Shown here piece by piece: positions 8,403 to 56,086 of a stretch of 64,000 nucleotides of DNA. The position numbers and the translations under genes were made by a program. Numbering within the stretch: the stretch's first letter is position 1; each line of letters begins with the position of its first letter. The DNA is from Trypanosoma brucei (lineage: Eukaryota). The stretch covers positions 1,536,001-1,600,000 of the forward strand of contig CP000068.1 in the NCBI GenBank assembly GCA_000002445.1, read 5' to 3'. The notes beneath the pieces are model-generated. The model did not search any database, was not told where the DNA came from, and was given only the letters and a program-made list of their open reading frames with translations.

Positions 8403-8766
8403 ACGCTAACTAATATTCATCAAATAAATAAAATAAACAAAATAAACAAAATTAGAACATCACTCATTTTTCATACCTTATCTCTCTGTTACTTTACATC
8501 CATCGGCCACCTTCATACGAAGGTTTAAATAATAGCATATTTTCATCGAAAAGTGTGAAAATATAACAGAGTCGCAAAAATATAGGTAAAAATTTTAAAA
8601 CAGTAAGGCCGTAAAAACAGCGGTCATCAGAGCCAATTACTTATTGACTAGAAAACTTCCATTTCGGCATTTCTCTGTATCCTTGTCATCCTCACCATCT
8701 TTGTCCTTTCTGAAACCACAAACGGGGGTTTGGCCTGCTGTGTTTTCAGCTTCGCATTTGGCTTTG

Positions 8767-10197
8767 TCAGTGCCGTGTTTGGTGCACCTGTCTGAAGCAG
8801 TTTTTCTCATCTTTCCCTCCTGTTTCTTGAGTTGCTTTTTCTGCTTCTTTTTTGCTCTCTTCACTCAATGTGCACCTTTTCTTTGGTTCTTTTGCTTCGG
8901 CGTCCCATTTGCAGGATGGTTTGCACTCTGTGTTTTTGTTTATCCTATTGCATTTTTCTTCGGCTTCTTCTTGGTTTTGTTTATTGTTTTCTGCTGCTAC
9001 TGCTGCACCTGGCGCTTTTTGGGATTGCTGCTGTATAGCCATTGCATTCAGCTGCAGGAGGTTTGTTAGGCTTTCATTGAGGCTGGTTAATTGAATCTCT
9101 GCCTGCAAAGTAGTGCGTTGCTCATCCTTTAGTGCCTGTTGCTTTTGAGCTGCTTTATCAAGAGCGCTTAGCCATGTCGGCTCCTGTATCGTGTTTGCCG
9201 CACTTACAAACGCTACACATGGACCTGTGCCTCCCGCGTCAGCGCCGTTGCAGTTGCCCGCTGCCCCTGCTGAGCCGACGTATCCTATGTATCCTACGGC
9301 GCCGCCAGTCCCTTTCGGTTCGTATAGCAGCGCCCTAATGCTGCTGCCGGCCTGTGCTATGTCCGTTTGCTGGTTAGCTTTATCGTGGTTGCCTTCGCTG
9401 CTGCAGTGTTCCGTTATTTGTGTCCACGCTGCTAGTGGTTTGCCTTGAGCCCCGAAATCCTGCTCTGTAGCTTGGGTTTTGTAGCGTGCCGCGGCGTTGT
9501 TGCTGGTACTGTCCGAGGCGCATAGACATGTCATGGTTTCTGCTAGTGAATTTTTGCTTGATGAGCCGCTTTTGCTGTTGGTGCCGCAGTGCGCTTCCCT
9601 GGTCGCCCCTGTGCCGGTTAGCTTGAGGTTGACTTTGTTTCCGCCGGGCCCGTATATTGCTTCCTCTAAGGCCGACTTGATTGCGGCGGCAGCGTCGGCT
9701 TCTTCTAAATAGTCTTTGGCTTGGTCCGCTAGAGTTTTCATTAGTTCGACGGTTTTGTTTATTTGCATGTGCAGTGGGCTCGCCGGCTGCGCCGCGATCT
9801 TGAGTTTCTGTTTTTCTTCTGGAGCTAAATTTTTTAGGTAGTTGGCTGCCTCTTGATACTGTGCCTTTGAGCTTCCCTTGCACTTTTCAGGAATCTCAGA
9901 GTCTCCCGTTGCCGCTTCTCCTGATGTGGTTGTTTTGTCTGCCATTTTTGCAATTGCGGAGAGCTCGCTTAGAATTAAAGCTATGTGTTGTGTTCTAAGA
10001 GCCGCATCCTTCGCTGCCGCAGACGGCTTGTTCTTACTTTGGAGCTTTGTGGCAGCCAGCACCACGTTGCATAGCAGTCCAAATGTTTGTCTGTTTTCAC
10101 CTTTGGTCGCGGTTCCCGCTTCAGTGGCTGCCGCGTACGTTATAAGCAGCAATGCTACCGCCACTACCGCTTTAGTTGGCCTTTGGTCCAATCGCAT
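8767..10197 (-). CDS. VSG: VSG (cassette C). The 476-aa ORF is nearly full length but is probably a pseudogene: there is a frameshift around 8770-8860 and a stop inside the GPI signal.
   Basis: The signal peptide is MRLDQRPTKAVVAVALLLITYAAA and the protein includes GENRQTFGLLC, CKWDAEAKEPKKRCTLSEE and other VSG hallmarks. The canonical C-terminus continues in another frame (ORF 8637-8864 ends NGSFLVNK, then a stop). After that stop the sequence reads LALMTAVFTALLF. Confidence 0.85.
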   Translation of the reverse strand: MRLDQRPTKAVVAVALLLITYAAATEAGTATKGENRQTFGLLCNVVLAATKLQSKNKPSAAAKDAALRTQHIALILSELSAIAKMADKTTTSGEAATGDSEIPEKCKGSSKAQYQEAANYLKNLAPEEKQKLKIAAQPASPLHMQINKTVELMKTLADQAKDYLEEADAAAAIKSALEEAIYGPGGNKVNLKLTGTGATREAHCGTNSKSGSSSKNSLAETMTCLCASDSTSNNAAARYKTQATEQDFGAQGKPLAAWTQITEHCSSEGNHDKANQQTDIAQAGSSIRALLYEPKGTGGAVGYIGYVGSAGAAGNCNGADAGGTGPCVAFVSAANTIQEPTWLSALDKAAQKQQALKDEQRTTLQAEIQLTSLNESLTNLLQLNAMAIQQQSQKAPGAAVAAENNKQNQEEAEEKCNRINKNTECKPSCKWDAEAKEPKKRCTLSEESKKEAEKATQETGGKDEKNCFRQVHQTRH

Positions 10198-10360
10198 CTC
10201 AGTTTGTGTCTAGTGCGTTTCTTTCAGCCTGGATCCGTAGGTAAAAGTGTGAGAAAGATGACGGTTGTTGGTTTTTCCGGCATGTTTTTGAAGTACTTCG
10301 CCTTTAAAAGCTTAGGGTGAGCCAGCTGTTCTGGTGCTCGTTATTTTTGACAAAATAACT

Positions 10361-12438: not shown

Positions 12439-12529
12439 AATTTAAAAAATTATTTTGAAAAATAATTTTTTCATAAAATTAAGCAAAAATCCTTAGAATA
12501 TAAGAATGCTAAAATGCAACCACACTCAC

Positions 12530-14041
12530 AAGGTAGCAGACGCCAGCGGAAATTTTTTATTTGCGAGGAAACTGTAATCTTTTCAAGTTGAGTCTTACCA
12601 TTTACAACTATCTTCACATTCTTTCTCTCCTTTCCCTGGACATTTATCCTTTTTCTTTCCATTTTTCTCCTGCTTCTTGGCTTGCTTTTTCTAGTCTTTC
12701 CTTCAGTTCCATTTTCGAGATGCACTTTTTTTCAGCTGGTTTGTTGTCGTGAAAATGGCAATGTTCAGTAGCATTACATGTCTTTGGGTCATTGTCTGTG
12801 ATTTTATTGCAAGCTTCTTCTGAATTGCTTGACTGTTTGTTATCTTTGTTAGCTTCTACGTCATCTTTTAACTTGATTATTTCGTTGTTTTTGGCTATTA
12901 TTGAATTAAAAAGCAGTTTTAAAAGTTGCTCAACGCTCTGTATTTCAGAGAGCGAAGTCTCGCCGTTTTCTTTGTCAGAAAATTCTTTGTTTGGAATTTG
13001 TGTTTCTTTAATATCTTTCCATACCTTGAGGTCGGTTGGCTTGTCGCTATCTTTGTAGATCTCTTCTAGCTTCTCGCTTGTTGGGCCGGCGTCGCTGCTT
13101 GTGTCGTATTTTTTTGTTTTCTTCAGTAGCTGGTGGTGGGCTGCTGCCTTTGCTGCTGCCAATTCCTGCAGACATTTAATGGTGAACTTTGTATGCTCTT
13201 TTCCCGCCGCGATTTTATTCTCTGCGGCATATATGAGCAGGTTGCCAAACTCCGCATAAGTGGTTCCGGCTGTAATTTTTTTTCATGTTTTTGCAGGCTG
13301 CGCAATGTGTATCATCGCGGCGCCTGCTGTTGCCTGGCTGAGGTAGCCGGTGTCATATGTTACTGGCGCAGCTAGCGTTTGTGCGCCCACCATGCTGGTG
13401 CCGGTGTGTTGAGTTAGGGCGTAGTTCTGGACAGTTCCAGTCGTTGCTGCATCGCCTGAGGCAGTGGAGAGCTCATCGAACAGAGACGAAGGACTGGTTA
13501 TAGCTTTGTTGGCCGTCGCTTTAGCGTCAAGCTGAGGGCCTACACCGCATTTTTTTCAAGGCTTGCCTTTTTTGCACTGCATTGCTGTTCCTGATTCTTC
13601 TAGGCACCCGTGAGTTTCGCATGTAGCGTAGGCCCCTGCAGCTATTTCTGCGAATTCAGCAATCCAGACCTGTAGGTAACTGCCGGCTGCCTGTGCATTC
13701 AGTGCTACGTCTATTGCCGTTTGCAGCTGTGTGGCTGTTATTGCCAGAAGCTCACGAAGCGATTACAGCAGCGGCCGGAGATTTGTGGCTGCTCCGGGCG
13801 GCTGTCTAGCAAAATATACCATTATTTTCAGTTTGTCTTTTAGCCACGAATCTGCTGTTGCTATGCTCGTTTTTAGTTTGGCAGCCCTCGCCGGAGCTGC
13901 CGTCGCCAACGCTTCCGCTACGCCACACAGTGGCTGCCAGACCGTGTGTTTAACGGCGTCGCCTGCACTTGCGGATGCAGCATCTGCTAGATATATTATG
14001 AGCAATAGCCTCGCTATGTCGTGCATTTGTGTAATGGGCAT
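12530..14041 (-). pseudogene. VSG: VSG pseudogene (cassette D), heavily fragmented
   Basis: The N-terminal ORF at 13763-14041 contains IARLLLIIYLADAASA and WQPLCGVAEAL. The C-terminal ORF at 12644-13162 contains EHCHFHDNKPAEKKC. Between them are multiple stops and frameshifts. Confidence 0.75.
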
Positions 14042-15293: not shown

Positions 15294-15521
15294 TCTTTAA
15301 CTAATATCCATCAAATTAACAAAATTAAAAAAATTAGAATATCACTTACTTTACATTCATATACCACTATCACACACATTTAAAAAAAACATGAAAAAGT
15401 GTTATAATATGCCATACTTTTAGAGAAATTTTAAGCTACATAAAATGGATCTAAAATTTTTACCAATAATTCTTAAAGTTGTTAAGCTAGAGGAAAAACT
15501 GCAAGCAAAAAGGGACTTTAA

Positions 15522-16946
15522 TTACAGCTGAAAGAACCGTTCCCTCTTTAACTTTGCACTCTTTCTTTTCTGCGTTACAATCGCATTTTGTTTTGTCGCA
15601 ATCTTTCTCTTCGACGGCTGTGAAAACCTCGGCTTTTTTATCCCCGTCTTTCTTATCGTCTTTTTGTCTGGTTTTTCGCTTTGTTTGAGCTTTTCCTCTG
15701 AGCCTGATAACTGAGCTTTTTCCGCTGCTTCTTTGCCGAGATAATATGCTAATACGGTTACACCATCAGCTGTCCCTGCCAATTCAAAGGGAGTCTTTTT
15801 TATTGGCATGTTCCTTATTTTTATGTCAATCCTTGTCTTGTCAATAGTGTCTGTGACTCTTTGCTTGAATATTTCTGGCTTTGCGCCGAAAAACTTGTGA
15901 ACAAGCGCTTTCCTTTCGATTGCATCTTTTGGAAGTGGTGTGTCTGGTGATCTTATATCAGTTAGGGTTTCTGCTAACCGGTTTTCAGCTTCCAGTGTCG
16001 ACAACGGGCGGTTGTGTGGAGGTGTATATGCAGGTTTCGGGGTACGCCTTAGCTGGCAGATAGCTGCTGCTAGGGCTGTTGGTTTGTACTGGTGCGGCTT
16101 ACTGTCGTCGCTGATTTTTGGGCACGCCGTCTGGTCCCCTGTGCTCTTTAGTGCTATCTTCGTTTTTTTGTACGAGTGCGCTTTGTGTTCGACTTTGGGT
16201 AGCAGTGCGTTGGCTTGATTGGCGCCGTCAAAGTCTTGTGATGCCGTGATGCAGGCGCCGGTCGTGTGTGCGGATCCTACCATGGCTCCGTTTACTTCTC
16301 CTTTACTTAGGGACGTCGCTTCTAGGACGTGTCTGCTTGCGGCCGTTGCCGCCAGCGTTATGTGCTCGGTGGTCTGCCATTTGACGTTAGAGCGCTTTAC
16401 GTCGTCTTCTTCGCTGTCTAGGCTGCAATTTTGCGCGGTGTACGAGATTTTGACAGCCGCCTTGCAGCCGTGTATGGTGTTAGTTGAGCCAATTGTGAGT
16501 GGGCTGCCAAGTTTGCTTCCGCTCTCTAAAGTTATTGTTTTGGTTGCTGTATCGTGGTCAGTTAGGTGCACCGCTTCCTGTATTTTTATTATCTCCCGCG
16601 TCGCCGCTACTTGTTCGTTGTGAGCTAGTGTTGCAGAGATTAGCTGTGATACATCTGCCTCGGCGATTGTCGCTAGCGCTTTGAAGGCCACTGCTGTTAC
16701 TGCGTCGTCTGACGAAGCTGCTGCTATTATATATGCCACCGCAGCTTTAACAGCTGTAGTTGCAGCTGATCCGTCGCTCAAATAAGTCGTTTTGATTTTG
16801 TCGTTGATTAATTTAAGATATCTGGCCGTCTGGCCGGGTGTGGATACAGCCTGGCTGGCGGCGTCATCGTCGCCCATGGTGCCCGTTAACTGAGCTGATT
16901 CCACTAGTATTATTAGTGGCTGTCTCCCTGCGTTGGTGTAAAGCAT
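15522..16946 (-). CDS. VSG: VSG (cassette E). The 474-aa ORF has a C-terminal frameshift, the canonical GPI-signal frame ends near 15488, and the N-terminus is atypical.
   Basis: The ORF ends KRKSAKLKRERFFQL. The same DNA in another frame encodes EEKDCDKTKCDCNAEKKECKVKEGTVLSAVIKVPFLLAVFPL followed by a stop, which is a GPI-type tail. The start MLYTNAGRQPLIILVESAQLTG is only weakly like a signal peptide. Confidence 0.7.
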   Translation of the reverse strand: MLYTNAGRQPLIILVESAQLTGTMGDDDAASQAVSTPGQTARYLKLINDKIKTTYLSDGSAATTAVKAAVAYIIAAASSDDAVTAVAFKALATIAEADVSQLISATLAHNEQVAATREIIKIQEAVHLTDHDTATKTITLESGSKLGSPLTIGSTNTIHGCKAAVKISYTAQNCSLDSEEDDVKRSNVKWQTTEHITLAATAASRHVLEATSLSKGEVNGAMVGSAHTTGACITASQDFDGANQANALLPKVEHKAHSYKKTKIALKSTGDQTACPKISDDSKPHQYKPTALAAAICQLRRTPKPAYTPPHNRPLSTLEAENRLAETLTDIRSPDTPLPKDAIERKALVHKFFGAKPEIFKQRVTDTIDKTRIDIKIRNMPIKKTPFELAGTADGVTVLAYYLGKEAAEKAQLSGSEEKLKQSEKPDKKTIRKTGIKKPRFSQPSKRKIATKQNAIVTQKRKSAKLKRERFFQL

Positions 16947-18221: not shown

Positions 18222-18394
<173 letters not shown>

Positions 18395-18605: not shown

Positions 18606-20147
18606 TTAAAATAGTAATGCCACAAAGGCAACCGACATTAGAGTAAATTTTTTATTAAAAAAAATACTGGAATCATTGCAAGCAATATTTTTCCATTTAC
18701 AGCTTTTGTCATCCTCACATTTTGCCTTATCAGTTCCGTGTCTTGCATATCCAGATGTATCTGTTCCTTCTCCTGCTTTTTCTACTGCTTTTTTGGCTTC
18801 CTCGCTCAATGTGCACTTTTTGTTGTGTTCCTTTGCTTCGCCGCTCCACGTGCATGGCGGTTTGCAATCTGTGTCTTTTTCTTTTTTATTGCATCCTTTT
18901 TCGGCTTCTTCTTGTTTTGTTGAGTCACCTGAGGCTGTTTCTGCTGCTGCTGCTGGACTTGCTGTTGGCCGCTTAAGCGCTTCCATGCAGTTTAGTGCTA
19001 GGAGGGTCGTTAGGGAATTATTGAGTGTGTGAATTTGTGCCTGTAGTCGAGTTATGGCGGCCTGTTTCCCGTGTAGTGCTGTTTGTTGTTCCGCTGCCGT
19101 CGCCAGTTTGCCGAGCCATTCTGGCGGTGCTATATCGGCTGGCCCGGTCCGAAAGCTTGCGCAGGCACCACTGTTTCCGCTGTTCTCACCGTCGCAGTTG
19201 CCTGTGCCCTGACCAGCGATATGGCCTATGATGCCGGTTTTGCCTGTCGTACCTTTGGCTGCGTTTAGTTCGGCCTGCAGTGCAGCTGTAATTTCAGTTA
19301 GTCTTTGCCTGTGTTGCGTTGCTGCGGTCCCGACCGTCTTCCGGCAGTCTTGCAGTATTGTCGACCAGTCCGTTATTTCTTCGTTTTGTTCCCCGAAGTT
19401 TTGGTTGCCTGTTGGGGTGCTGTAGCACGCCGTGTTTGTTCTCGGTCCTGCGGCGGTTGACGCGCACAGGCAAGCTATTGTTTCCGCGATTGATCTTTTG
19501 GCCGATGCGCCTGGGCCGGTGTCGCCCTTGCCGCAGTGGGTCTCCCTGTCCCCGCCGGCGCCTGGCAACTTCGGCTTGGTTGTTTTTGTCGTTACACCGT
19601 AGATGGCTTAAATCAAATGTTTTTTGACTGGGTCGTTGGTGTCGCCGTTTGAAAATATTTTGTGTGTTGTAGCAATCTTTATGAGTTTTTGCAGCGTGTT
19701 GTTTATCTTTTCCTTGAATCCGCGGTTTTCTGTGGTGGCCTGTAGAAGCTTTTGTTTTTCTGCTTCTGGTAAGCCTTTGAAATATGTTGCAGCTGCCGTG
19801 CACCGAGAAAGTTTTTCCTTTTTACATGCAGTTGAAATAGCGTCATTGTCGTCTGGTTTTGGCTTGCTGTATGTAATAAGCGACGCAACTTTGCTTATAG
19901 CTGTTGGTTGTTCCATGATTAATGACATGAATTGTGAATTTTGTGCTGCCTCCTTGGAAGCCTGTGCTGGTGCCGGTGCTGCTGAGCCTTCTTCCTCCGC
20001 TAACACCACTGCACATAACAAACTAAATGGGCCTCGGTTTTCTCCTTTGCTGGGTCCAGCTGCTGATACGTGTGTTGCTATTGACACGAACACCGCACAT
20101 ATGGCTACTAACAACATTGCTTGGGGTTTTTTCTGACGCTTAAACAT
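18606..20147 (-). pseudogene. VSG: VSG (cassette F) with a single interruption at about 19568-19608. The GPI signal is canonical and intact.
   Basis: The N-terminal ORF at 19608-20147 has the signal peptide MLLVAICAVFVSIATHVSA and GENRGPFSLLCAVVLA. The C-terminal ORF at 18606-19568 ends CKWKNIACNDSSIFFNKKFTLMSVAFVALLF. It is paralogous to cassette C. Confidence 0.85.
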
Positions 20148-22400: not shown

Positions 22401-22699
22401 ACCTAACTAGTATAAAAAATATAAATCAAATTAATATTTTTTCATAATTTCACTCATTTTTCACGTCATATCACCTTTCCACTTTACGTCCATAGGCCCA
22501 TTTCATGTACATTTCACTAAAATATAATATTTTTCAGATTTTTTAAAACTTTCAAAAGTTTCACGTTTCTCAAAAGCTTTAAAAATGTGTTAACATATAT
22601 TATATTTCATAAAATTCTCTCAAAATAAAAATATTCATAAAAATCATAAAATTGAGCAAAAATATTTAGATTTTTATAATCCAAATATAAAACAAAAAT

Positions 22700-24360: not shown

Positions 24361-25355
24361 CTACTGGACACACCGGCCGTTGTTAGCGTCCTTGTTTCCT
24401 TTGCGTCCACACCAGGGGCTGCCAATGCCACTGACCGTCCCAAGTATATGCTGCTGTTGCGCGTTTCCTCCTTTTTTCCTGTTTATTGACTGTCTGAAGT
24501 TGGCCCAGGCTATTTGAACTTCTAGTGGATTGAGTTTGCCTGGGCTTCCAAATTCAGTGCATTTGCTTAGCAGTTTGTCTGCTGCAGTCTTATCGTTTAC
24601 GTTGGAGCTCCAGTTGTCGTTCGTCACGGTGCTTTCTAGGCTGACACCGCATGCTTTTTTCGTGCCTAAGTTCAGGTGGTCTCGCCCCGCGCATAGACAA
24701 AGCAAGTCGGTGGCTATTGAGTTTCCCGCTTTGTTGTTTGCTCCCCCATCCTTTTCTGAGCACGCCTGTGCCCGTGTCGCGTGGCCTATCATCGCCGGTT
24801 TGCTTCCCGTGTTTCCGGCTCCATATAGTGCTTCTTCTGCTAGTGCGGCTGCATGCTCAGCTGACGATTTTGGTGGCTTATTCGCTGTGTTGAAAGCTTC
24901 GAGCGCTCGGTCGGCCGCTTGCCTAATGTGCTCCACTGTTTTGGGTGAGTGCTTTCCTGCCGTCCATTTTTCTATCGTTTCTTTAGACTTTTGTAACTCT
25001 TGTTTTGCTGCTTTGTAGAAAGGCCAGATTGATGCCTTGTTTTCCAGTGTCTTGCGTTGGTCTTCTGTTAGCCATGCCCATTCCTTTGACGTGTCTATGG
25101 CTGTTACGAATATTTTGGCAAGATGCTTAGATTTAGCGCACCGATGTATACGGAGGTGGGTACCGATGCCTTTTTGATTGGGGGTGCCTCGATGGCGGCC
25201 CTTTCTAAGTTTGCAATGTTGCAGAGAGAGAGCGGAATTCTGCTGTATTGTTGTGTGTCTGACTAGTGAGCACCATGTACCTGTATAAATTTCACCAGCA
25301 CCGCGAGTGTCACCATTGCTAGTACCTCCTCTGAACTCAGTGGTATCATGACCAT
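24361..25355 (-). pseudogene. VSG: 3'-truncated VSG fragment (H): N-terminal domain only, directly abutting cassette G with no 70-bp repeat or 3'UTR of its own
   Basis: ORF 24361-24936 (AALAEEALYGAGNTGSKPAMIGHATRAQACS and IATDLLCLCAG) aligns with the N-domain of cassette I (ALTKALYGETGNSKN and IALDILCLCGK). Upstream, with stops, the signal-like sequence MVTLAVLVKFIQVHGA lies near 25314. Confidence 0.65.
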
Positions 25356-44042: not shown

Positions 44043-44262
44043 ACTCTTATTATAATATTAGTATATACACACTCACAACACTCTTCTATTATTATTATCA
44101 TAATTATTATCATTACTTCTCTTATCATAATATTCGTATATACACACTCACAACACTCTTCTATTATTATTATCATAATTATTATCATTACTTCTCTTAT
44201 CATAATATTCGTATATACACACTCACAACACACTCTCCTATCATTATTATAATTATTACACC
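44043..44262 (-). repeat. 70-bp repeat block, 3 copies
   Basis: The unit tataatattcgtatatacacactcacaacactcttctattattattatcataattattatcattacttctct repeats. Confidence 0.9.
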
Positions 44263-44609
44263 AATAATCAACTTTAATACCAAATATGTTAATTTTACTT
44301 GAATTAAAAACTTTAAAATATGCATATTTCTTTCAAAAGTGTTAAAATAGGTCAAATTTTATAAATTTTTATAAAATTCTTAAAAAGCTACCAAAGTCAC
44401 AAAGCAACACCAATTAGAGCCAATTTCTTATCCAAATCAAAACAGGAACCTTTGCATTTTTCTTCTATCCAGCCGCAAACAGATTTCTCATCTGCTTTGA
44501 CATTCTTGTTTTCTGCCTCACAAGCCTCTTTTTTCGTGTGATCGTAACACTTTTTACCAGTCTGGGTCCCTCCTGTTCCTGCTTGTGTTGCTTGTTGTGC
44601 TGCTGCTGT
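44150..44609. repeat. segmental identity, copy 1 (also at 47278-47754): last 70-bp repeat plus 3'UTR plus the 3' about 210 bp of VSG coding
   Basis: The sequence is identical at every position compared (about 460 bp); the final 16 bp of the original span were not supported by the comparison. The ORF tail of 44397-45953 (NTTAAAQQATQAGTGG to LALIGVAL) is identical to ORF 47524-47745. Confidence 0.85.
44339..44354 (-). promoter_or_regulatory. VSG 3'UTR 16-mer variant (14/16)
   Basis: The plus strand reads gtgttaaaataggtca. Confidence 0.6.
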
Positions 44610-45953
44610 CGTATTCAATTCGCAGTGTTTTCCTGTTTCATCAGTTTCTTTCGTCCATTTGCAGTTTCCATTCTTTCTGCATTCTGTTGCTTTTTCTATT
44701 ACTGCGCAGTTTTTAGTTACTTTTTCTGTTTCAGGTGCGGTCTTGTCGTGTTTTGCCGTTTCTATTTGCTGCGGCCGCTCGGTGTACAGCAGTGCTTGCA
44801 CTAGTTGCTTTTTAGCTTTCAGTTGCCTTGCGGCCTCCTTTCTTATTTGCACTGCTTGCTCGTGTTTGCGCAGTTGGCTTGCTATCTCAGAGAGTCCGCT
44901 GAGCCACGGGATGTCCGTCACTTTCGCCGTGCCGTCCGTGCCGAGGTCAGTGTACTTGACACACATGCCGCCCCCTTGGAGGCCTGTGCATGTGCCGGCG
45001 ATGGTTTTTCCTAGTGTTGCTTGACCGCTTTTCCTTGCTATCAATCCAGTGACTGCCGCTAACCGCGATTCTAGCGAAGCGGCTGATAGTTTATGTTTGG
45101 TTTTGAGATCGCAGAGCTTTACAGCTTGTGAGATTACTGTTGCCGGTGGTGCAGAAGCGGCGTTCCAGTCAGTTGTCAGTCCTGTTGTGTGTTCACAGGC
45201 TTTTTGTTCGCTGCCGGCTTTAGATTGGTCTGCTGTGCAGATGCAAATCAGGGCCGCCGTTACTGTTTTAGCAGCGTTGGTTTGTGTCGTGCCGTCGCAA
45301 TATCCGGCCCTGTTGCTCGCTGTTGGCGATGTAAACAGCTTTGTTGCGGCAGCGGGTGGTTCGGCGTCTGGGTTTCCGCCGTAGATTTGCTCGTTTAGTA
45401 GTGTTTTCAGCTTTTCGTCATTTAGCAGATGCGTTTCGGGCGCATCGGCTGTCGCTAGCGACTCTATCGCTTCGGCCTCGGCTGTTATCCTGGCGACTGC
45501 CGCCCGAATTGACACACGCTGCTCCTGCGTCATTGCTTGTAGCTTGTGTTTTGTCAAAGCTTCTTTCTGTCCGTCTGCTTTTAATAGCGACTCAGCTGCG
45601 GTTTTCCATTTTGGCCACCTTCCGGGCCAGTCTTTGTGCTCCCTGAATTCTGCTTCCGGAAAGTCTCGCGGCTTCTCCCTGGCATCGGTTTGCCGGAAAA
45701 TGTCAAGCCAGCTGCTATCTGCCAGCGACATATTTAGCTCTAGTAGATCTGCCATGTCTTTACCGAGTTGTGAGTCGCTCGACTCCAGAGCTGCGCGCCC
45801 ATTTGCTAATTCGATTAAGCCGCAGAGGGCTCCTCTCTCCCGCACATTGTCGTCTGCTGCTATGTTTCCGCGCGCGGTCTGTGTCGTTAGAACTATAGCA
45901 ATAACTATCGCCACTTGTAGATGACTGCCGTGTCTTTGTGGCAGTGGCGGCAT
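44397..45953 (-). CDS. VSG: VSG (cassette N), an uninterrupted 518-aa ORF whose C-terminal hydrophobic tail is short or truncated
   Basis: The signal peptide is MPPLPQRHGSHLQVAIVIAIVLTTQTARG. The protein includes CKWTKETDETGKHCELNTT and [26 protein letters not shown] followed by a stop. Only about 8 hydrophobic residues follow the presumed omega region, where the canonical tail is [15 protein letters not shown]. Confidence 0.8.
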   Translation of the reverse strand: MPPLPQRHGSHLQVAIVIAIVLTTQTARGNIAADDNVRERGALCGLIELANGRAALESSDSQLGKDMADLLELNMSLADSSWLDIFRQTDAREKPRDFPEAEFREHKDWPGRWPKWKTAAESLLKADGQKEALTKHKLQAMTQEQRVSIRAAVARITAEAEAIESLATADAPETHLLNDEKLKTLLNEQIYGGNPDAEPPAAATKLFTSPTASNRAGYCDGTTQTNAAKTVTAALICICTADQSKAGSEQKACEHTTGLTTDWNAASAPPATVISQAVKLCDLKTKHKLSAASLESRLAAVTGLIARKSGQATLGKTIAGTCTGLQGGGMCVKYTDLGTDGTAKVTDIPWLSGLSEIASQLRKHEQAVQIRKEAARQLKAKKQLVQALLYTERPQQIETAKHDKTAPETEKVTKNCAVIEKATECRKNGNCKWTKETDETGKHCELNTTAAAQQATQAGTGGTQTGKKCYDHTKKEACEAENKNVKADEKSVCGWIEEKCKGSCFDLDKKLALIGVAL

Positions 45954-47388: not shown

Positions 47389-47754
47389 CAATAATCAACT
47401 TTAATACCAAATATGTTAATTTTACTTGAATTAAAAACTTTAAAATATGCATATTTCTTTCAAAAGTGTTAAAATAGGTCAAATTTTATAAATTTTTATA
47501 AAATTCTTAAAAAGCTACCAAAGTCACAAAGCAACACCAATTAGAGCCAATTTCTTATCCAAATCAAAACAGGAACCTTTGCATTTTTCTTCTATCCAGC
47601 CGCAAACAGATTTCTCATCTGCTTTGACATTCTTGTTTTCTGCCTCACAAGCCTCTTTTTTCGTGTGATCGTAACACTTTTTACCAGTCTGGGTCCCTCC
47701 TGTTCCTGCTTGTGTTGCTTGTTGTGCTGCTGCTGTCGTATTCAATTTGCACTG
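47278..47754. repeat. segmental identity, copy 2 (copy 1 at 44150-44609)
   Basis: See copy 1. Confidence 0.85.
47466..47481 (-). promoter_or_regulatory. VSG 3'UTR 16-mer variant (14/16)
   Basis: The plus strand reads gtgttaaaataggtca. Confidence 0.6.
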
Positions 47755-49142
47755 GGGGCCATCTTTCGCGTCATCGCCCTCCCATTTGCAGTTACCATTC
47801 TTTCTGCATTCTGTTGCTTTTTCTAGCTTTGCGCATTCTTTTTTTTAATGTCTGCTGTTTCTGCGCTGTTCTCTACTACCTTTTAGATTTGTTTGTGTGG
47901 TATGTCTAGTTCAGCGTTGTTGAGATTGTGGATTATGGCATACGAACTGTTGACTACCTGCTTCAGTTGATGAGTGAGCATCTTTGTCTGTTGACATGCT
48001 TCGTCGTAGATTTTAAATATGGTCCCTAGGGATTCTAGGTACTCAAGCCAGGGTATCTTGCCCGCCGCTATTTTGCCGCCGCTTACATAATTTGCATATT
48101 TGACGCACACTCCGTTGGTGGCTGTTCCTTCGCAGTTTTTAGTTCCTGCGATTGCGCCTAGATAGCCGCCGGTGGAGTCGACTATTATTGGCTGTCTTAC
48201 CTGTCTCGCCAGATGGCGTAGGCTTTCGGCCTGTAGTACGGTGGCCGCTGGCTGCGGGCAGTGCTTTATGAGTTCGTTCCGTGCTGTGCTGCCTGATATC
48301 GCACTGCCGCTAGTTCATGCATGGCCTAGAGTGACGCTGTGGTGGCAGGGGATGGCAGGGCTGCCTACACTGTCCTTCATGCACACGCACGTCAGCACCG
48401 CCGCTATCGTCGTCGCTTTGTCGCCATCGCAGTCCGTTGCTCGTGTGTCCGATTTGCGTGTGAAAGCCGTCGCCGCTGTGAAGGTGGTCCCCGTGCTTTT
48501 ATCGCCGTAAACGATTTTTCTTAGCTTCTCTGGGGCTTCGGTTATATCCTTGTCCTGCAGCCTCGGTTTTAGTGCATCGATCTGCTTTTTGAGCACGCCT
48601 GCCGTGTGCGCCGCTGACGTTTTGTGAACACGTGCCAGTTTTCTCGCTAAGCCCTCAAGCTTGTTGGCCTGCAGTTTTTTTATCCTTTCGGGTGTTGTAG
48701 CCATGTCGGAGAGCTTTTTTGCTGCTGCACTCCAGAGTGGCCAGTTTTTCGTCCACGTATCGTCTACGAGGTCTTCTGTTATGCCGGCTTTCTGAGCTAT
48801 TTCGGCTTTTGTGCTCTTTGGATTGCTGTCCCTTAAAATATTCCGCCATTTTTCGTTCGCCACAGATATGTTTAGGTCGACGATGCCAGTGATCTCGGTG
48901 TCGGCGTCGCTTTCGTAGTTAAGTGCCTTAGGTGGTGAACGGCCTAAGTTGACTAGGTCGCAGAGCGTGTCGAACAGTGCTGCAATGCCACCGTCCGCTA
49001 TCGCGGCATTTACTGGTAAGAGCAGCCTCAATAGAATGCCAGTGTTAATAGCATTAGACGGTGCATCTTGCGCACAGTACGACTCACTTTTGTTGTGCCT
49101 ATTCGCCTCTTGCTGTGCTTTTGCTTCAGTAGAACGAAACAA
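47524..49142 (-). pseudogene. VSG: VSG pseudogene (cassette O), fragmented, with the same 3' end as cassette N
   Basis: The N-terminal ORF at 48315-49142 contains ALFDTLCDLVNLG, WTKNWPLWSAAAKKL and LTCVCMKDS. The middle ORF at 47883-48110 reads MCVKYANYVSGGKIAAGKIPWLEYL. The C-terminal ORF at 47524-47745 is identical to the C-terminus of N. Confidence 0.8.
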
Positions 49143-50392: not shown

Positions 50393-50734
50393 CTGTTAGA
50401 TATAACCCTAACCATAATTAATATCCAATATAATAAATAAAACAAAGAAATTAGAAAGAATTTCAAAATATCGCTAATTTTTCATACCCTATCACCCTGC
50501 TTCTTGACACCTGTGCGCTAAACTCATATATATTTGAGGAAAATTGTATTTTTAAAAAATTTACCGAACTTGCACTTTTCTATCAAATAGTGTTAAAATG
50601 AAACAAAATTTATACTTTTCACGAATTACATCAAGATATCGTATTTTATTTAATTTTATGAAGTTGAGAAATGATCCTTAAAATTGTAAAATGCTCTATA
50701 AGTCACAAAAGCAGCAGAAATCAAAGCTAATTTC

Positions 50735-52202
50735 TTATTTACAAGAAAAGTAGTATCTTTGCAAGTTTTACCGTCTAACATACACTTTGGGACTTTTCAA
50801 TCATCGTTTTTAGCGTGTTTCGATCACTTTGAGTCAACTTTCTCTTGTTTGTTTGCTTCTGCAGCGGCTTCTTTTGTTATTGTGCACTTTTTGTCTTGGG
50901 ATTTGCAGAAACAAAATGACAACTTGGAGTCTTGTTTCAAGAAGTTTCATTTTGATCCTCTATCGCGTTGCAAATTTGCTCTTGTGTTTTCGAGGCTCCT
51001 TTGTTAATTTGCTCTTATAATTCTGCAATTTTCCTTTTTAAAGCTTTGGTATTGATGTCCTGGTAGTATGCTAGTGTTGCCGTTAGGTCCTTCAGTGTTG
51101 AAAGTGATGTCAATGGAACTTTGTCCGTGCCTTTGGCATTGGGGTTGTGGACTTGTGCTGAGGCGAAAGCAGTGTTGTATTCTTTTGCCATTGCTCCTTT
51201 GTCTCCAAAGGCACCTCCGATCTCATCCTTTATGACGGCTTCCTCAGTTTGCCCTATTGTATCTTTCTTTTTAACTAGCATGGCATAGATTGTCCTGAAG
51301 TCAGCACTTTCTTTGAGCTGGTCGGCTGTCTCGAATTTGTAACTTGCCGGGGTGTACTTTGTTGTTAGGTAAGCGTCGTGTGCTGCTTTGAGCGTGGGTG
51401 CCGTCCCTTCGGCTGTGCTTAGGGATACCGTTGCCCGCCTTTGCATGCCGTCGTTGTGGATGTAGTACAGTCCTGAAGCGAAGGTCGGGCTCCCTTGTAT
51501 TGCGCTGTCGCCGTTGGCGCCGTCTAGTAGTCTTGAACTTGCTTTGGCTGCTGTTATTGCACACGTGTCCGACGTGGTGTCGGTGTTCGCGGCTACATCT
51601 GCATCTTCTTGCAGCCCGCCGTCGTAGCCTGTTTGTGTGAAATGGTTTGTCGCCGTGTCAACCGTTGTTAGTGTGGCGGTTGAAATTTTACAGCCTTCTG
51701 AGTTGCCGGCAAAGGCCGTACTGTGAGGCCTGTGGCTATTGCTGCCTGTCTCTTTCTCTAAGCAACCGTCAGCTCCGCTCGTCGTTGATATTTGTGCCAT
51801 TGCGCCTATGAAATCCCTGATGGAGCCCTCAGCTCTGGCGGCATCTCTTATAGCTGATGCTAGCTTGCCTACTGCGGTCGAGGTTAGCTCGTTTGCTGCT
51901 ACGTCCGCTTTGTATGCATAGTAGGCTAGGAGTGCCCTATCGGCTGCTGTATAGGTCCCGTTTCTGTAGGCTTCGGTATATATTGCTGTTCGAAAGTACT
52001 GTTTTAAGTAGTCGTTTACCGTTGCCATAGGTGTCGCCAGTCTGTGGGCGGCTTTTTGTTCTACTTTGTCTAATTCGCTAGCCAGTTGGCATGCCGCTGT
52101 CCAACCATTTGCTTTGAGCCGTCCTCCAGCTCCTGCATCGCCCATTTGCAACGCCCAAAGCAGAATCACACTTATGATTGCTATTTGCTGACTTTGCTGC
52201 AT
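50735..52202 (-). pseudogene. VSG: VSG (cassette P). The 395-aa N-domain ORF at 51015-52202 is intact and the C-terminal domain is in another frame.
   Basis: The signal peptide is MQQSQQIAIISVILLWALQMGDA. The N-domain contains GWTAACQLASELDK and ends IAEL followed by a stop. Downstream, a shifted frame encodes KTCKDTTFLVNKKLALISAAFVT. Confidence 0.8.
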
Positions 52203-54564: not shown

Positions 54565-54579
54565 TGTTAAAATATATCA
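54565..54579 (-). promoter_or_regulatory. VSG 3'UTR 16-mer (15/16)
   Basis: The plus strand reads atgttaaaatatatca. Confidence 0.75.
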
Positions 54580-54655
54580 AAATAAAAACTTTTCACAATG
54601 TTTGTAAACTTAATAAAAAGAACAAAGTTCTTAAAATTCTAATATGCTACCAAAC

Positions 54656-56086
54656 CTATAAAAGCAGCAGAAAGGAAAGCAAATTTTCTATTGAAAAGAA
54701 AACAGGACTCCTCAAACTATTTACCATCCCGTTTTCAGCTATTGTTGCAGTCTTTTTGCTCTTTGCCTGCATACTTCTCTTTAGTTTCCCATCTGGTCCT
54801 TTTGTTTCTTTGTGCACTGCTTGCTTGCCTTCCTCACTCAAGGTGCACTTTCTCTTTGGTTCCTTTGCGTCGCCGTCCCACTTGCAAGGCGTTTTGCGTT
54901 CTGTATCTGTTTCTTTTTTATTGCACTCTTTTTCGACTTGTGTTTCTTGTTCACTTTTCTTTGCTGTATTTTTTAGCGCTGATGCGTGGCTTGGCGCATC
55001 TCCTCCTAGTGCCGCCATGTAGGCGGCTAGTGCCGTCGTTTTTAGCGCCGTTGCTGTTGCTGCAAGGTGTGCGTTGTGCTGTGCTTCGCCGTTGGCTGTT
55101 TCTAGTTTGGTTATCGCGTTGTCGATAGCGGCTTGCCACTTTACGTCAAGTTTGCCTTCTGCCTCGATGTCTTTGTACAGTATGCAGTTGCCGTTGGCTG
55201 CACCATTGCACTGGGCTGTGCTGCCTGCGCCGAGTATGTTTTTTGCTGCCGTGGCCGATTTGGCGCCCGTCATGAAGTTTGCTAGAAAAAGCTGCTCGGC
55301 TTGGAGAAGTGTAGCTATGCCAGTCTTTCCTCTGCCCTGGTGAGGGCATTTGGTTGCTAGTTCCTCAAAAGCTGCTGCAGCTTCCGCCGTAGTGCCCATC
55401 TTTACTGCATTTAGCGCCTTTCCTGTACAGTCGACCGAGTTTCCGTTGGCTTGGCTGCAAAGGCACACTAGGTCCGCCGCGAACGTCGTCCCGGCTGCGC
55501 TGGTGCTGGCGACACTGCCTCCGCATGCCGTGGCCCCGTTGTCGACAAACGCCGTTGGGCCGCTTTTATCTAGGGTTTTTGTCGGTCCATAAAGTGCTGT
55601 TTTGAGCTCGTCCTCTACGACTTTTTCTTTTATAGTTTGTTTTAACTGCTGCTTGAGCTTCTCTGTCAGTTTGAGCGTTCTGTTGATGACCTCTGACGCT
55701 CGCTGCCTGGCGAACGATGCTCGTGGCCGTTGCAGCTTCAGTCCGCTTATTTCTGTTGCTCCTGTTTTTATTTGGTTTTTAATCTCTTGCCATCGTTGTC
55801 TGTGGTTCCGATATTCTTCTGGCTTCTTGCTGTCGTCGTCTGCTGGATCGAATGATTGGTCGTAGAGACTGTCCTCAGCTGTCGACAGATTTAACTGTTG
55901 CAGTTCAGCGATTGCCTGTGTTATTAAGGCTTCACTGTTGTCGAGCGGGATATCTGGCTTTTCCTGCAGTGTTCGCAAGATAGTGCACATTGTAGTGAAG
56001 GCTTGCGCGTTGCCGTTAGCCTTCCCACTAACAAGCTCCTGGGGTGTCAGCCATAAAATTATGGCCGCTACCAAAATTGTCATCAC
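54656..56086 (-). CDS. VSG: VSG (cassette Q), an uninterrupted 476-aa ORF. Its tail is hydrophobic, but it sits in a frame shifted relative to the canonical GPI-signal reading.
   Basis: The signal peptide is MMTILVAAIILWLTPQELVSG. The protein includes DLVCLCSQANG and CKWDGDAKEPKRKCTLSEEGK. The ORF ends NSLRSPVFFSIENLLSFLLLL followed by a stop. The neighbouring frame reads ESCFLFNRKFAFLSAAFIGLVAY, which matches the canonical [25 protein letters not shown]. Confidence 0.8.
   Translation of the reverse strand: MMTILVAAIILWLTPQELVSGKANGNAQAFTTMCTILRTLQEKPDIPLDNSEALITQAIAELQQLNLSTAEDSLYDQSFDPADDDSKKPEEYRNHRQRWQEIKNQIKTGATEISGLKLQRPRASFARQRASEVINRTLKLTEKLKQQLKQTIKEKVVEDELKTALYGPTKTLDKSGPTAFVDNGATACGGSVASTSAAGTTFAADLVCLCSQANGNSVDCTGKALNAVKMGTTAEAAAAFEELATKCPHQGRGKTGIATLLQAEQLFLANFMTGAKSATAAKNILGAGSTAQCNGAANGNCILYKDIEAEGKLDVKWQAAIDNAITKLETANGEAQHNAHLAATATALKTTALAAYMAALGGDAPSHASALKNTAKKSEQETQVEKECNKKETDTERKTPCKWDGDAKEPKRKCTLSEEGKQAVHKETKGPDGKLKRSMQAKSKKTATIAENGMVNSLRSPVFFSIENLLSFLLLL

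What the first reader, a model, noticed from the sequence alone, without database searches (positions are those of the whole stretch)
8590..56086. Lesions cluster in the last ~100 codons of otherwise open VSG ORFs
Cassettes C (8767-10197), E (15522-16946), K (35160-36665), L (38770-40170), P (51015-52202) and Q keep open N-domain reading frames of 395-501 aa. They lose frame only in the C-terminal domain or GPI-signal region, which is rich in A/T homopolymers. There are two explanations. The biological one is that N-domains are kept as donors for segmental or mosaic conversion, while 3' ends are supplied by the recipient expression-site VSG. The technical one is homopolymer indel errors in the assembly. 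The pattern is striking because N-domains are three times longer yet intact.
Basis: partly seen in the sequence, partly recalled or inferred. Interest (0 to 1): 0.5.

Follow-up and report, generated by a model that had tools for sequence, protein, structure and literature searches.

The report
VSG pseudogenes broken mostly at 3′ ends
In this silent array of trypanosome surface-coat (VSG) genes, the mutations that break the reading frame are about five times denser in the short C-terminal part than in the long antigenic N-terminal part; the pattern is real, but it matches what the field already describes, because the expression site can supply the C-terminal end when a gene is copied in.

Summary
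The window is a silent VSG array of Trypanosoma brucei brucei TREU927, with every gene on the minus strand. I rebuilt all 18 full-length cassettes, not only the six named. They carry 58 ORF-breaking lesions. Twenty-two lie in 6,727 N-domain codons (0.33 per 100). Thirty-six lie in 2,351 hinge, C-domain and GPI-signal codons (1.53 per 100). That is a 4.7-fold excess (p about 7e-9). Fifteen of 17 damaged cassettes are denser at the 3′ end. Eight cassettes have an untouched N-domain and a broken 3′ end; two show the reverse.

The assembly-error explanation fails. Thirty-six of the 58 lesions are nonsense substitutions. Frameshifts are not enriched at long homopolymers. The frameshifted tails of K and E occur unchanged in VSGs of strain EATRO1125. 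One stop is shared with the T. equiperdum orthologous locus.

Composition explains part of the excess: stop-prone codons are 1.3 times and homopolymer runs 2 to 2.5 times denser at the 3′ end. The remainder fits the published "3′ donation" mechanism, in which conversion replaces the N-domain and keeps the expression-site C-domain. Evidence for active protection of N-domain ORFs is weak (p 0.02 to 0.04). Verdict: observation confirmed, biology already known, low novelty.

The parts
2968..4493 (-). Cassette A, A-type VSG. N-domain open for 396 codons. Lesions: TAG 3303-3305 (hinge), TAA 3138-3140, and a frameshift in the GPI signal within 2982-3015.
5655..7176 (-). Cassette c18, A-type. N-domain lesions: TAG 6946-6948, frameshift near 6790, TAG 6635-6637. 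C-domain lesions: frameshift at the A7 run 5829-5835 and frameshift near 5748 (2-nt loss).
8598..10197 (-). Cassette C, B-type. N-domain open. Frameshift in the linker between the C-domain subdomains (possible interval 8767-8864, best estimate 8797-8829). TAA 8637-8639 in the GPI signal.
12505..14041 (-). Cassette c16, A-type. N-domain stops: TAA 13763-13765 (shared with T. equiperdum), TGA 13556-13558, TGA 13283-13285. C-domain lesions: frameshift within 12644-12690, TAA 12595-12597, TGA 12583-12585, and a GPI-signal frameshift near 12535.
15485..16946 (-). Cassette E, a VSG family with no Pfam match. N-domain open. A 1-nt loss in or next to the A5 run (15652-15665) and a 1-nt loss next to the T run near 15510 in the GPI signal. 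Conserved cysteines are lost (STPC to STPG, AEVC to AEVF).
18609..20147 (-). Cassette c14, B-type. Counter-example: a single TAA at 19608-19610 in the N-domain, with C-domain and GPI signal intact.
22682..24151 (-). Cassette c12b, B-type. Nine in-frame stops and no frameshift. N-domain: codons starting at 23875, 23710, 23527, 23212, 23182, 23152. C-domain: 22930, 22921, 22792.
24367..25325 (-). N-domain fragment 12a, B-type, with no C-domain, abutting c12b. One stop (25263-25265) and one frameshift near 25124. Left out of the statistics.
26852..28297 (-). Cassette c11, fully open (481 aa), identical to XP_845142, annotated 'VSG, atypical'. The GPI signal is extended (…LLAFLTLGANI).
31082..32546 (-). 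Cassette c10, B-type. N-domain frameshift within 32064-32163. C-domain: TGA 31171-31173 and a frameshift within 31156-31162.
35080..36665 (-). Cassette K, B-type, identical to XP_845143. N-domain open. Frameshift confined to 13 nt (35160-35172, sequence AAAAGCTTTTTGA). The second C-domain subdomain has lost cysteines. No 3'UTR 16-mer is recognisable.
37780..38146 (-). Orphan C-domain fragment 8b, with its own 3'UTR 16-mer at 37686-37701. Two stops and one frameshift. Left out of the statistics.
38593..40170 (-). Cassette L, B-type. The only lesion is TAA 38770-38772, at codon 467 of 526. Everything else, including the GPI signal and an exact 16-mer, is intact.
41511..42913 (-). Cassette c7, a divergent A-type. 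Counter-example: one N-domain frameshift within 42530-42659, with the C-domain open to its natural stop.
44383..45953 (-). Cassette c6, B-type, with a 518-aa ORF. The single lesion is a 1-nt loss in the GPI signal within 44397-44427.
47510..49066 (-). Cassette c5, B-type. Signal-peptide frameshift (49028-49175), TGA 48315-48317, TAA 47883-47885, frameshift at the A8 run 47839-47846. It carries the same GPI-signal frameshift as c6, counted once.
44044..44698 (-). 3' block shared with 47175-47825 (95% identity). It is 100% identical over the 3' part of the C-domain, the GPI-signal frameshift and the 3'UTR (44260-44620). The differences are patchy and confined to 44621-44702.
50689..52202 (-). 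Cassette P, A-type. N-domain open for 395 codons. Lesions: TAA 51015-51017 (hinge), TGA 50937-50939 (replaces a cysteine), frameshift within 50877-50946, TGA 50824-50826, TGA 50797-50799. The natural stop appears to be lost.
54642..56083 (-). Cassette Q, B-type. N-domain open. One to three lesions, all in the last 55 codons. Either a frameshift at 54754-54800 plus TGA 54735-54737 and TAG 54717-54719, or a single frameshift near 54715.
58408..59940 (-). Cassette c2, A-type. Five in-frame stops and no frameshift: 59836-59838, 59647-59649 and 58966-58968 in the N-domain; 58690-58692 and 58462-58464 in the C-domain.
61953..63478 (-). Cassette c1, B-type. N-domain frameshift within 62834-62909. TAA 62364-62366. 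C-domain frameshift within 62001-62073. Two further frameshifts in the GPI signal (61967-62032).

Best explanation
These are silent-archive VSG cassettes of T. brucei TREU927. Their 3' ends (hinge, C-terminal domain, GPI signal and often the 3'UTR 16-mer) decay faster than their N-terminal domains.

Two causes combine.

(1) Mutational opportunity. The 3' region is A-rich and full of Lys, Glu and Cys codons, which are one change from a stop. It also has twice the density of homopolymer runs. Damaged 3' blocks are copied between neighbouring silent genes as well.

(2) Relaxed constraint. When an array gene is copied into the expression site, conversion starts in the upstream 70-bp repeats. It often ends inside the C-domain coding region, so the resident C-domain, GPI signal and 3'UTR are retained ("3' donation"). 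A lesion downstream of the crossover therefore costs nothing, while a lesion in the N-domain removes the cassette from simple use and leaves it only for mosaic assembly.

Shown here: the lesion map, the excess, that the lesions are real, and the exchange of a 3' block between neighbours. Taken from the literature: 3' donation. Inferred: that selection, rather than extra mutation, accounts for the part of the excess that composition does not explain.
For: Identity. ORFs 26852-28297 and 35160-36665 are identical to TREU927 proteins XP_845142 and XP_845143. The cassettes have A- or B-type N-domains and C-domains, 70-bp repeats and 3'UTR 16-mers.

Excess. 22 lesions in 6,727 N-zone codons against 36 in 2,351 C-zone codons, ratio 4.7, p 7e-9. 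With the boundary at the first C-domain cysteine the ratio is 4.9, p 5e-9. 15 of 17 cassettes are denser at the 3' end (p 0.002). 8 cassettes have all lesions in the C zone against 2 with all in the N zone. First-lesion positions are bimodal: 0.02-0.40 and 0.78-0.98 of the coding length.

Composition explains only part. The nonsense target per codon is 1.3 times higher and runs of 5 or more are 2.3-2.5 times denser in the C zone. Residual p values are 0.002-0.01. With a ratio of 2, 2.6 all-in-C cassettes are expected against 8 observed (p 3e-4).

Mixture model. A ratio of 2.8 plus 31% of cassettes with a protected N-domain fits better than one common ratio (bootstrap p 0.023).

Reality of the lesions. 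K's tail is identical in VSG 1125.1035 and 1125.4184. E's tail is identical in VSG 1125.4691, and the intact relative 1125.4249 locates both 1-nt losses.

Ortholog comparison with T. equiperdum. E's N-domain has 92 substitutions, dN/dS 0.75 and no nonsense codon (3.2 expected). The T. equiperdum C-domain has two independent AAA-to-TAA stops, where TREU927 has two frameshifts.

Exchange of 3' ends independent of N-domains. The c5/c6 block is 100% identical across the frameshift and 3'UTR, with a patchy boundary inside the C-domain.

Literature. [quoted passage not shown] A conversion end inside the C-domain or 3'UTR is described in PMC4155160 and PMC1868767, and the same N-domain with different C-domains in PMC6464242.
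Against: - A single elevated ratio of about 4.7 for all cassettes is not firmly rejected (p 0.08). Extra, unmodelled mutation at 3' ends could therefore explain everything without selection.
- The sample is 18 cassettes from one array. Frameshift positions in weakly conserved N-domains are less well resolved than in C-domains, and paired compensating shifts there could be missed.
- Lesion counts in degenerate GPI signals (c1, c16, Q) carry an uncertainty of one or two.
- P and A break in the hinge before any conserved C-domain sequence, so rescue would need a crossover at the very end of the N-domain.
- E's open N-domain has lost conserved cysteines, so "open" does not mean "functional".
- The T. 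equiperdum E ortholog has a 1-nt deletion in the signal peptide.
Confidence: 0.65

Rival explanations
1. Mutation and conversion only. The 3' ends break more often because they are A-rich, rich in stop-prone codons and homopolymers, and are recombination hotspots where conversion tracts end and damaged blocks spread. No selection of any kind keeps N-domain ORFs open.
For: - Targets are 1.3 to 2.5 times higher at the 3' end.
- Among cassettes whose N-domain is already broken the ratio is only 2.3, close to the target estimate.
- The common-ratio model is not rejected at p 0.08.
- A damaged 3' block was copied between neighbours.
- Six frameshifts cluster 53-68 codons from the end, in the A-rich linker between C-domain subdomains.
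- Recombination is reported as concentrated at the VSG C terminus in PMC13233330.
Against: - Residual excess remains after target correction (p 0.002-0.01).
- The mixture model is preferred (p 0.023).
- E's N-domain took 92 near-neutral substitutions with no nonsense codon (3.2 expected), while its short C-domain gained two stops and two frameshifts across two lineages.
- The ratio of 2.3 among broken cassettes is biased downward, because those cassettes were chosen for having an N-domain lesion.
Confidence: 0.28
2. Assembly or sequencing artefact. The breaks are homopolymer indel errors in the reference sequence.
For: About half of the frameshift intervals contain an A or T run of 5 or more. 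Those located most precisely (K, E, c18, c5) lie in or next to runs of 5-8.
Against: - 36 of 58 lesions are base substitutions that create stops.
- There is no enrichment of runs in frameshift intervals: 11 against 9.9 expected.
- At least six frameshifts lie in intervals with no run of 5 or more.
- K's and E's frameshifted tails are reproduced in EATRO1125 sequences.
- The stop at 13763-13765 is reproduced in T. equiperdum.
- The reference is the TREU927 genome. From my own knowledge, it was finished by Sanger sequencing.
Confidence: 0.02
3. Choosing cassettes by long ORFs from the ATG guarantees late first lesions, and there is no real excess.
For: The six cassettes were indeed chosen by ORF length. 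Nine other cassettes in the window have N-domain lesions.
Against: The excess holds over all 18 cassettes. It also holds within cassettes that have N-domain lesions: 7 of 9 are denser at the 3' end.
Confidence: 0.03

Closest known systems
3' donation, i.e. segmental gene conversion that keeps the expression-site C-domain (Hall, Wang and Barry 2013, PMC3708902; first seen as an 'altered 3' end' by Bernards et al. 1981, as cited in PMC4155160)
   Same: Same organism and strain. The cassettes have upstream 70-bp repeats and conserved C-domain and 3'UTR sequence for the two crossovers. Six of the eight cassettes with an open N-domain and a broken 3' end keep at least 120 nt of undamaged C-domain coding sequence before the first lesion. 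That exceeds the 13-143 bp of boundary homology reported.
   Different: Nothing here shows expression. I measured the state of the silent donors, not conversion events. P and A break in the hinge, a case the paper reports only once.
The T. brucei silent VSG archive and its pseudogene classes (Berriman et al. 2005; Marcello and Barry 2007; VSGdb, PMC1868767)
   Same: The window is part of that archive. The mix of one clean or 'atypical' gene, many full-length pseudogenes and a few fragments matches the published proportions: only about 5% intact, the rest atypical genes, pseudogenes and fragments.
   Different: The sources I could read describe damage by class, not by position. One review says the archive is mutated 'apparently randomly' (PMC3467770). 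The five-fold positional bias measured here refines that statement. I could not read Marcello and Barry 2007, so I cannot say whether they already quantified it.
Partial silent-cassette systems in bacteria (Anaplasma msp2, Borrelia vlsE, Neisseria pilS), named as analogues in PMC3708902 and PMC3467770
   Same: The silent donors need only carry the variable, antigenic segment. The expression site supplies the constant ends.
   Different: The bacterial cassettes lack the ends altogether. Here full-length genes are present and the unused end decays in place.

Membership tests
T. brucei subtelomeric silent VSG array cassette | An A- or B-type VSG N-terminal domain | tested here: met
   PF00913 or PF13206 matched 9 of 10 long ORFs (E-values 1e-35 to 1e-80 for complete domains). 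My own HMMs placed N-domains in all 18 cassettes. E has no Pfam hit but has named VSG homologs at 80-99% identity.
T. brucei subtelomeric silent VSG array cassette | A C-terminal domain with the cysteine pattern and a GPI signal | tested here: met
   PF10659 hits. Frameshift-aware alignments to 25 intact C-domains.
T. brucei subtelomeric silent VSG array cassette | Upstream 70-bp repeats and the conserved 3'UTR 16-mer | tested here: met
   30 repeat cores in 13 blocks against 0.1 expected. 12 16-mers with at most 2 mismatches against 0.15 expected. K and c1 have none, even at 3 mismatches.
T. brucei subtelomeric silent VSG array cassette | The sequence belongs to a T. brucei genome | tested here: met
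   Two ORFs match TREU927 proteins XP_845142 and XP_845143 exactly, on a 1,608,198-bp contig.
VSG pseudogene usable by 3' donation (intact N-domain, damaged C-domain) | N-domain ORF open from the ATG to the end of the domain | tested here: met
   Eight cassettes: A, C, E, K, L, P, Q and c6. E has lost conserved cysteines.
VSG pseudogene usable by 3' donation (intact N-domain, damaged C-domain) | ORF-breaking lesion(s) confined to the hinge, C-domain or GPI signal | tested here: met
   One to five lesions each, all in the last 113 codons.
VSG pseudogene usable by 3' donation (intact N-domain, damaged C-domain) | Undamaged homologous sequence between the N-domain and the first lesion, where the 3' crossover can fall | tested here: inconclusive
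   Five cassettes keep 42-97 codons of C-domain before the first lesion (C, K, L, Q, c6), and E keeps only family-specific hinge sequence. P and A break 11-15 codons before the first cysteine. I did not measure homology to actual expression-site VSGs.
VSG pseudogene usable by 3' donation (intact N-domain, damaged C-domain) | Observed expression of the N-domain joined to a foreign C-domain | not testable with these tools
   This needs expressed-VSG cDNA data for these loci.
Homopolymer indel assembly artefact | The lesions are indels | tested here: not met
   36 of 58 are substitutions to TAA, TAG or TGA.
Homopolymer indel assembly artefact | Indels fall in long homopolymers more often than chance | tested here: not met
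   11 of 20 intervals contain a run of 5 or more, against 9.9 expected.
Homopolymer indel assembly artefact | The lesions are absent from independent sequences of the same locus | tested here: not met
   K's and E's tails are identical in EATRO1125 VSGs. The c16 stop is shared with T. equiperdum. C, L, P and Q could not be checked.

The most novel reading that the evidence does not exclude
Within silent arrays, N-domain reading frames are specifically shielded from ORF-breaking mutations while their amino-acid sequence drifts almost neutrally. In the E ortholog pair dN/dS is 0.75, with no stops where about 3 were expected, against four independent breaks in the short C-domain. That would be a measurable signature of second-order selection, or of a conversion-based renewal process, acting on genes that are never expressed in place. 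It would contradict the view that the archive is mutated randomly.
Probability: 0.3. Interest if true: 0.45.

Novelty: already known. Interest (0 to 1): 0.2.

Why it matters
The positional bias decides how much of the roughly 80% "pseudogene" archive can be used directly. A cassette broken only at its 3' end can yield a new coat in one conversion step. A cassette broken in the N-domain needs mosaic assembly. In this window, 9 of 18 cassettes (8 broken only at the 3' end plus 1 open but atypical) are potential one-step N-domain donors, although only two are annotated as genes. The field already works with this idea, so the value here is a quantified local example, plus a clean rejection of the assembly-error reading.

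Tried and rejected
- Larger sample. I tried to reach more TREU927 arrays by searching the protein database with a profile of 20 C-domains. It returned only 2 hits. The first single-protein search also returned only 2. A genome-wide test was therefore not possible.
- Exact look-up of the ORFs of C, E, L, P, Q, A, c6 and c7 found nothing. Cross-strain checks of C, L, P and Q could not be made.
- Marcello and Barry 2007, Cross et al. 2014 and Weirather et al. 2012 are not held in the library. I cannot say whether they already quantified the bias.
- Frameshift-aware alignments of broken N-domains to weak references (25-35% identity) produced spurious paired shifts. I used the minimum-lesion path anchored on HMM hits instead.
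- The first automatic walk counted an extra stop in c5 and a stop rather than a frameshift in c16's GPI signal. Both were corrected by hand.
- E's frameshift was first placed loosely, within a 242-nt interval. It was then pinned down with a close intact homolog.
- Pfam searches of ten inter-cassette ORFs gave nothing significant.
- Estimating the neutral ratio from cassettes with broken N-domains was rejected as a fair estimate, because the selection of those cassettes is circular. I report it only as a lower bound.

Full report
**What the window is.** All long ORFs lie on the minus strand. Their products are VSGs. Pfam finds complete A-type (PF00913) or B-type (PF13206) N-terminal domains and the VSG C-terminal domain (PF10659). 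Between the genes lie reverse-complemented 70-bp repeats: 30 cores in 13 blocks, against 0.1 expected. The conserved 3'UTR 16-mer is also present: 12 copies with at most 2 mismatches, against 0.15 expected. Two ORFs are identical to proteins of Trypanosoma brucei brucei TREU927 on a 1,608,198-bp contig. ORF 26852-28297 is XP_845142, annotated "VSG, atypical". ORF 35160-36665 (cassette K) is XP_845143, annotated "VSG, putative". The window is therefore a piece of the TREU927 silent VSG archive.

**Checking the observation.** The six named ORFs exist with the stated lengths. Choosing cassettes by the length of the ORF from the ATG guarantees a late first lesion. I therefore rebuilt every cassette.

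The method had five steps:
- I built HMMs for A-type N-domains, B-type N-domains and C-domains. The sources were 76 VSGs from a representative-library search, two earlier hits and the window's own open domains.
- I searched these HMMs against all stop-free segments of the minus strand.
- I wrote a protein-to-DNA aligner that allows frameshifts and in-frame stops.
- I aligned each C-terminal region to 25 intact C-domains, and each broken N-domain to the best references.
- I then walked each cassette from its ATG to its natural GPI-signal end. Along the frame path fixed by these anchors I counted in-frame stops and frame changes.

This gave 18 full-length cassettes, one N-domain fragment (24367-25325) and one orphan C-domain fragment (37780-38146).

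**Result.** There are 58 ORF-breaking lesions: 36 in-frame stops and 22 frameshifts.

| Boundary between zones | N-zone lesions / codons | C-zone lesions / codons | Ratio | Binomial p |
|---|---|---|---|---|
| 35 codons upstream of the first C-domain cysteine (hinge counted as C zone) | 22 / 6,727 (0.33 per 100) | 36 / 2,351 (1.53 per 100) | 4.7 | 7e-9 |
| At the first C-domain cysteine | 27 / 7,357 (0.37 per 100) | 31 / 1,721 (1.80 per 100) | 4.9 | 5e-9 |

- Fifteen of 17 damaged cassettes are denser at the 3' end (sign test p 0.002).
- Thirty-two lesions lie in the last 100 codons and 19 in the last 40.
- Eight cassettes have every lesion in the C zone: A 3303-4493, C, E, K, L, P, Q and c6 44397-45953.
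- Two have their only lesion in the N-domain: c7, with a frameshift within 42530-42659, and c14, with TAA 19608-19610.
- One is open throughout (c11, 26852-28297). Seven are damaged in both zones.
- First-lesion positions are bimodal: nine at 0.02-0.40 of the coding length, eight at 0.78-0.98, and none between.

Counts in the most degenerate GPI signals (c1, c16) and in Q (1 or 3 lesions) are uncertain by one or two. That does not change any conclusion.

**What the lesions are.** "Losing frame" is only partly right.
- L is broken by a single TAA (38770-38772). Everything downstream is intact, including the GPI signal and an exact 16-mer.
- A has TAG 3303-3305, TAA 3138-3140 and one frameshift in the GPI signal.
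- P has TAA 51015-51017, TGA 50937-50939 in place of a cysteine, one frameshift, and TGA 50824-50826 and 50797-50799.
- C has one frameshift in the linker between the C-domain subdomains, plus TAA 8637-8639.
- K has one frameshift confined to 13 nt (35160-35172).
- E has two 1-nt losses.
- Cassettes c2 and c12b carry five and nine in-frame stops and no frameshift at all.

**The technical explanation.** Homopolymer errors cannot create stop codons by substitution, and 36 of the 58 lesions are such stops. For each frameshift I computed the interval in which both frames are open. Eleven of 20 intervals contain a run of 5 or more. Random intervals of the same length in the same zone give 9.9. Among the nine intervals of 50 nt or less, three contain such a run against 2.6 expected. 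At least six frameshifts lie where no such run exists.

Independent sequences agree with the window:
- K's 501-aa ORF, including its frameshifted tail (…PEDFVLAKGDIPKDKKAF), is identical at the C terminus in two VSGs of strain EATRO1125 (1125.1035 and 1125.4184).
- E's 474-aa ORF with its frameshifted tail is reproduced in VSG 1125.4691 (99% identity). The intact relative 1125.4249 (489 aa, 80% identity) locates the two 1-nt losses.
- A T. equiperdum contig (L001) is orthologous to window 18288-13290 at 93% identity over 5 kb. It carries the same TAA at window position 13763-13765 in cassette c16.
- The GPI-signal frameshift of c6 is present in c5 as well, inside a block that is 100% identical.

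The TREU927 reference was, to my knowledge, finished by Sanger sequencing. I reject the assembly-error reading. C, L, P and Q could not be checked against another assembly.

**How much is composition?** The C zone is 40% A.
- Its codons offer 1.3 times more single-base routes to a stop than N-zone codons (0.47 against 0.36 per codon).
- Runs of 5 or more are 2.3-2.5 times denser (13 against 5-6 per kb).
- Against these targets, the excess of stops (17 N, 20 C at that stage of the count) keeps p 0.003.
- The excess of frameshifts (5 N, 15 C) keeps p 0.002-0.01.

Composition therefore explains perhaps half of the effect. If the true ratio were 2, 2.6 cassettes would be expected to have all lesions in the C zone; eight do (p 3e-4). 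At the fitted common ratio of 4.7, 5.1 are expected (p 0.08). A mixture model fits better than a single ratio. In it, 31% of cassettes have a protected N-domain and the rest decay at a ratio of 2.8 (likelihood-ratio statistic 4.2, bootstrap p 0.023). Among cassettes whose N-domain is already broken the ratio is 2.3. That group is selected for N-domain lesions, so the figure is a lower bound.

**Ortholog comparison.** The comparison is between TREU927 and T. equiperdum.
- E's N-domain (codons 21-402) has 92 substitutions spread evenly over codon positions (35, 26, 31). dN/dS is 0.75.
- It has no nonsense codon in either lineage, although 3.2 would be expected from random substitutions (Poisson P about 0.04).
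- In the roughly 80 codons downstream, TREU927 has two 1-nt deletions. T. equiperdum instead has two AAA-to-TAA stops, at window positions 15639 and 15549.
- These are four independent breaks of the same short region.
- T. equiperdum also has a 1-nt deletion in the signal-peptide region (window 16889), so its N terminus is not clean.
- The pseudogene c16 gained a further stop in T. equiperdum (TGG to TAG at 13846).

This is one gene pair. It is suggestive, not conclusive.

**Exchange of 3' ends among silent genes.** Cassettes c5 and c6 have different N-domain sequences (48.8% identity just upstream of the block) but share a 659-bp block (44044-44698 and 47175-47825).
- From 44620 to 44260 the block is 100% identical. 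This span covers the 3' part of the C-domain, the frameshifted GPI signal and the 3'UTR.
- The 26 differences are confined to 44621-44702, inside the C-domain coding region, with no bias by codon position (9, 7, 10).
- Upstream of the block, identity drops to 49%.

This is a recent conversion or duplication whose boundary lies inside the C-domain. It is the same geometry as 3' donation, but between two silent neighbours, and it copied a lesion. I counted that lesion once.

**Mechanism.** The anatomy fits the published model. Conversion of an array VSG into the expression site begins in the 70-bp repeats. It ends either in the 3'UTR or within the C-domain coding region (PMC4155160, PMC1868767). 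In TREU927 infections, 57% of unique expressed VSG sequences showed "3' donation", and a quarter of those had the boundary only in the GPI-signal region. Homology at the boundary was 13-143 bp. [quoted passage not shown] Long-read data show one N-domain with three different C-domains (PMC6464242).

Here, all eight cassettes with an open N-domain and a broken 3' end have 70-bp repeats 0.6-1.9 kb upstream. Five keep 42-97 codons of undamaged C-domain sequence before the first lesion, and E keeps a family-specific hinge. P and A break in the hinge and would need a crossover at the very end of the N-domain. The paper reports such a case once.

Shown here: the lesion map, the excess, that the lesions are real, and the exchange of 3' blocks. 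Taken from the literature: the conversion mechanism. Inferred: that relaxed constraint on the 3' end, rather than an additional unmodelled mutation bias, accounts for the residual excess.

**Comparison with what is known, and novelty.** The archive's pseudogene content, and the use of cassettes with damaged C-domains through 3' donation, are established. One review describes the archive as mutated "apparently randomly" (PMC3467770). The positional bias measured here refines that. I could not read Marcello and Barry 2007 or Cross et al. 2014, which may already report it. I rate the finding as already known. The remaining open point is whether N-domain ORFs are actively protected, and that needs a genome-wide test.

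**Verdict.** The technical explanation is refuted. The biological explanation is consistent with the evidence and already in the literature. Composition and conversion between silent genes contribute as well. Interest is low (0.2).

Noticed in passing
window 44044-44698 and 47175-47825: Neighbouring cassettes with different N-domain sequences share a 3' block. It is 100% identical from 44620 to 44260 (3' part of the C-domain, frameshifted GPI signal, 3'UTR with the same variant 16-mer TGACCTATTTTAACAC). A patchy boundary lies inside the C-domain. This is a conversion between silent genes that copied a lesion.
   Followed up: yes
window 10798-11338 and 20788-21328: A 541-bp block, 99.8% identical, lies upstream of cassettes C and c14. 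Both N-domains belong to the same family (best references VSG 1125.4162 and A0A1V0FXS9). ORFs in the block have no Pfam match.
   Followed up: partly
window 15485-16946: Cassette E and its relatives (VSG 1125.4691, 1125.4249, Lister 427 VSG 530 and a T. equiperdum VSG) match neither Pfam VSG N-domain model, even at E-value 10. TREU927 E and its EATRO1125 ortholog 1125.4691 have lost a conserved N-domain cysteine (STPC to STPG). TREU927 E has also lost the first C-domain cysteine (AEVC to AEVF).
   Followed up: partly
window 22682-24151 and 58408-59940: Cassette c12b has nine in-frame stops and c2 has five, with no frameshift in either. That is an unusually pure substitution pattern for such decayed genes.
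   Followed up: no
L001 1-13578 against window 13290-18288: The T. equiperdum contig is orthologous to the window only downstream of the 70-bp repeat at about window 18288. Upstream it carries different cassettes. Coding N-domains are more diverged (92.1% and 89.9% identity) than the flanking non-coding DNA (96.3% and 94.8%).
   Followed up: partly
window 13559-14041 (c16 N-domain): c16 is a pseudogene in both TREU927 and T. equiperdum, yet the 59 differences are biased to third codon positions (16, 14, 29; dN/dS 0.33). It looks as if the variation was imported from constrained copies, or predates the inactivation.
   Followed up: no
window 26852-28297: The two EATRO1125 relatives of this 'atypical' VSG (1125.431 and 1125.4782) end at …TTNTT, exactly where TREU927 reads TGG (Trp) and most VSGs have Gly. 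The same codon is a stop in one strain and a sense codon in the other.
   Followed up: partly
C-domain linkers of cassettes Q, c16, E, c18, P and C: Six frameshifts cluster 53-68 codons before the natural stop. They lie in the A-rich linker between the two C-domain subdomains, or before the GPI-proximal segment.
   Followed up: partly
window 37686-38146 and 24367-25325: An orphan C-domain fragment has its own 16-mer and lies just upstream of a 70-bp repeat block. An N-domain fragment is fused directly to the upstream side of cassette c12b. Both are remnants of partial conversions or deletions.
   Followed up: partly
window 18260-18394: A perfect (ATT)45 microsatellite lies next to the 70-bp repeat core at 18236-18253.
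   Followed up: no
window 28300-30790 and 33000-34900: Two inter-cassette stretches of about 2 kb have ORFs of 60-125 aa with no VSG homology and no significant Pfam match.
   Followed up: partly
representative-library hits P0007, P0008, P0018, P0065 and others: Many deposited VSG 'proteins' from other strains have a complete N-domain and end in a frameshifted or truncated C-domain. Of 53 sequences of 380 aa or more, only 24 end in a canonical GPI signal. The same pattern therefore appears in public VSG sets, though those sets are biased by ORF-length filters.
   Followed up: partly
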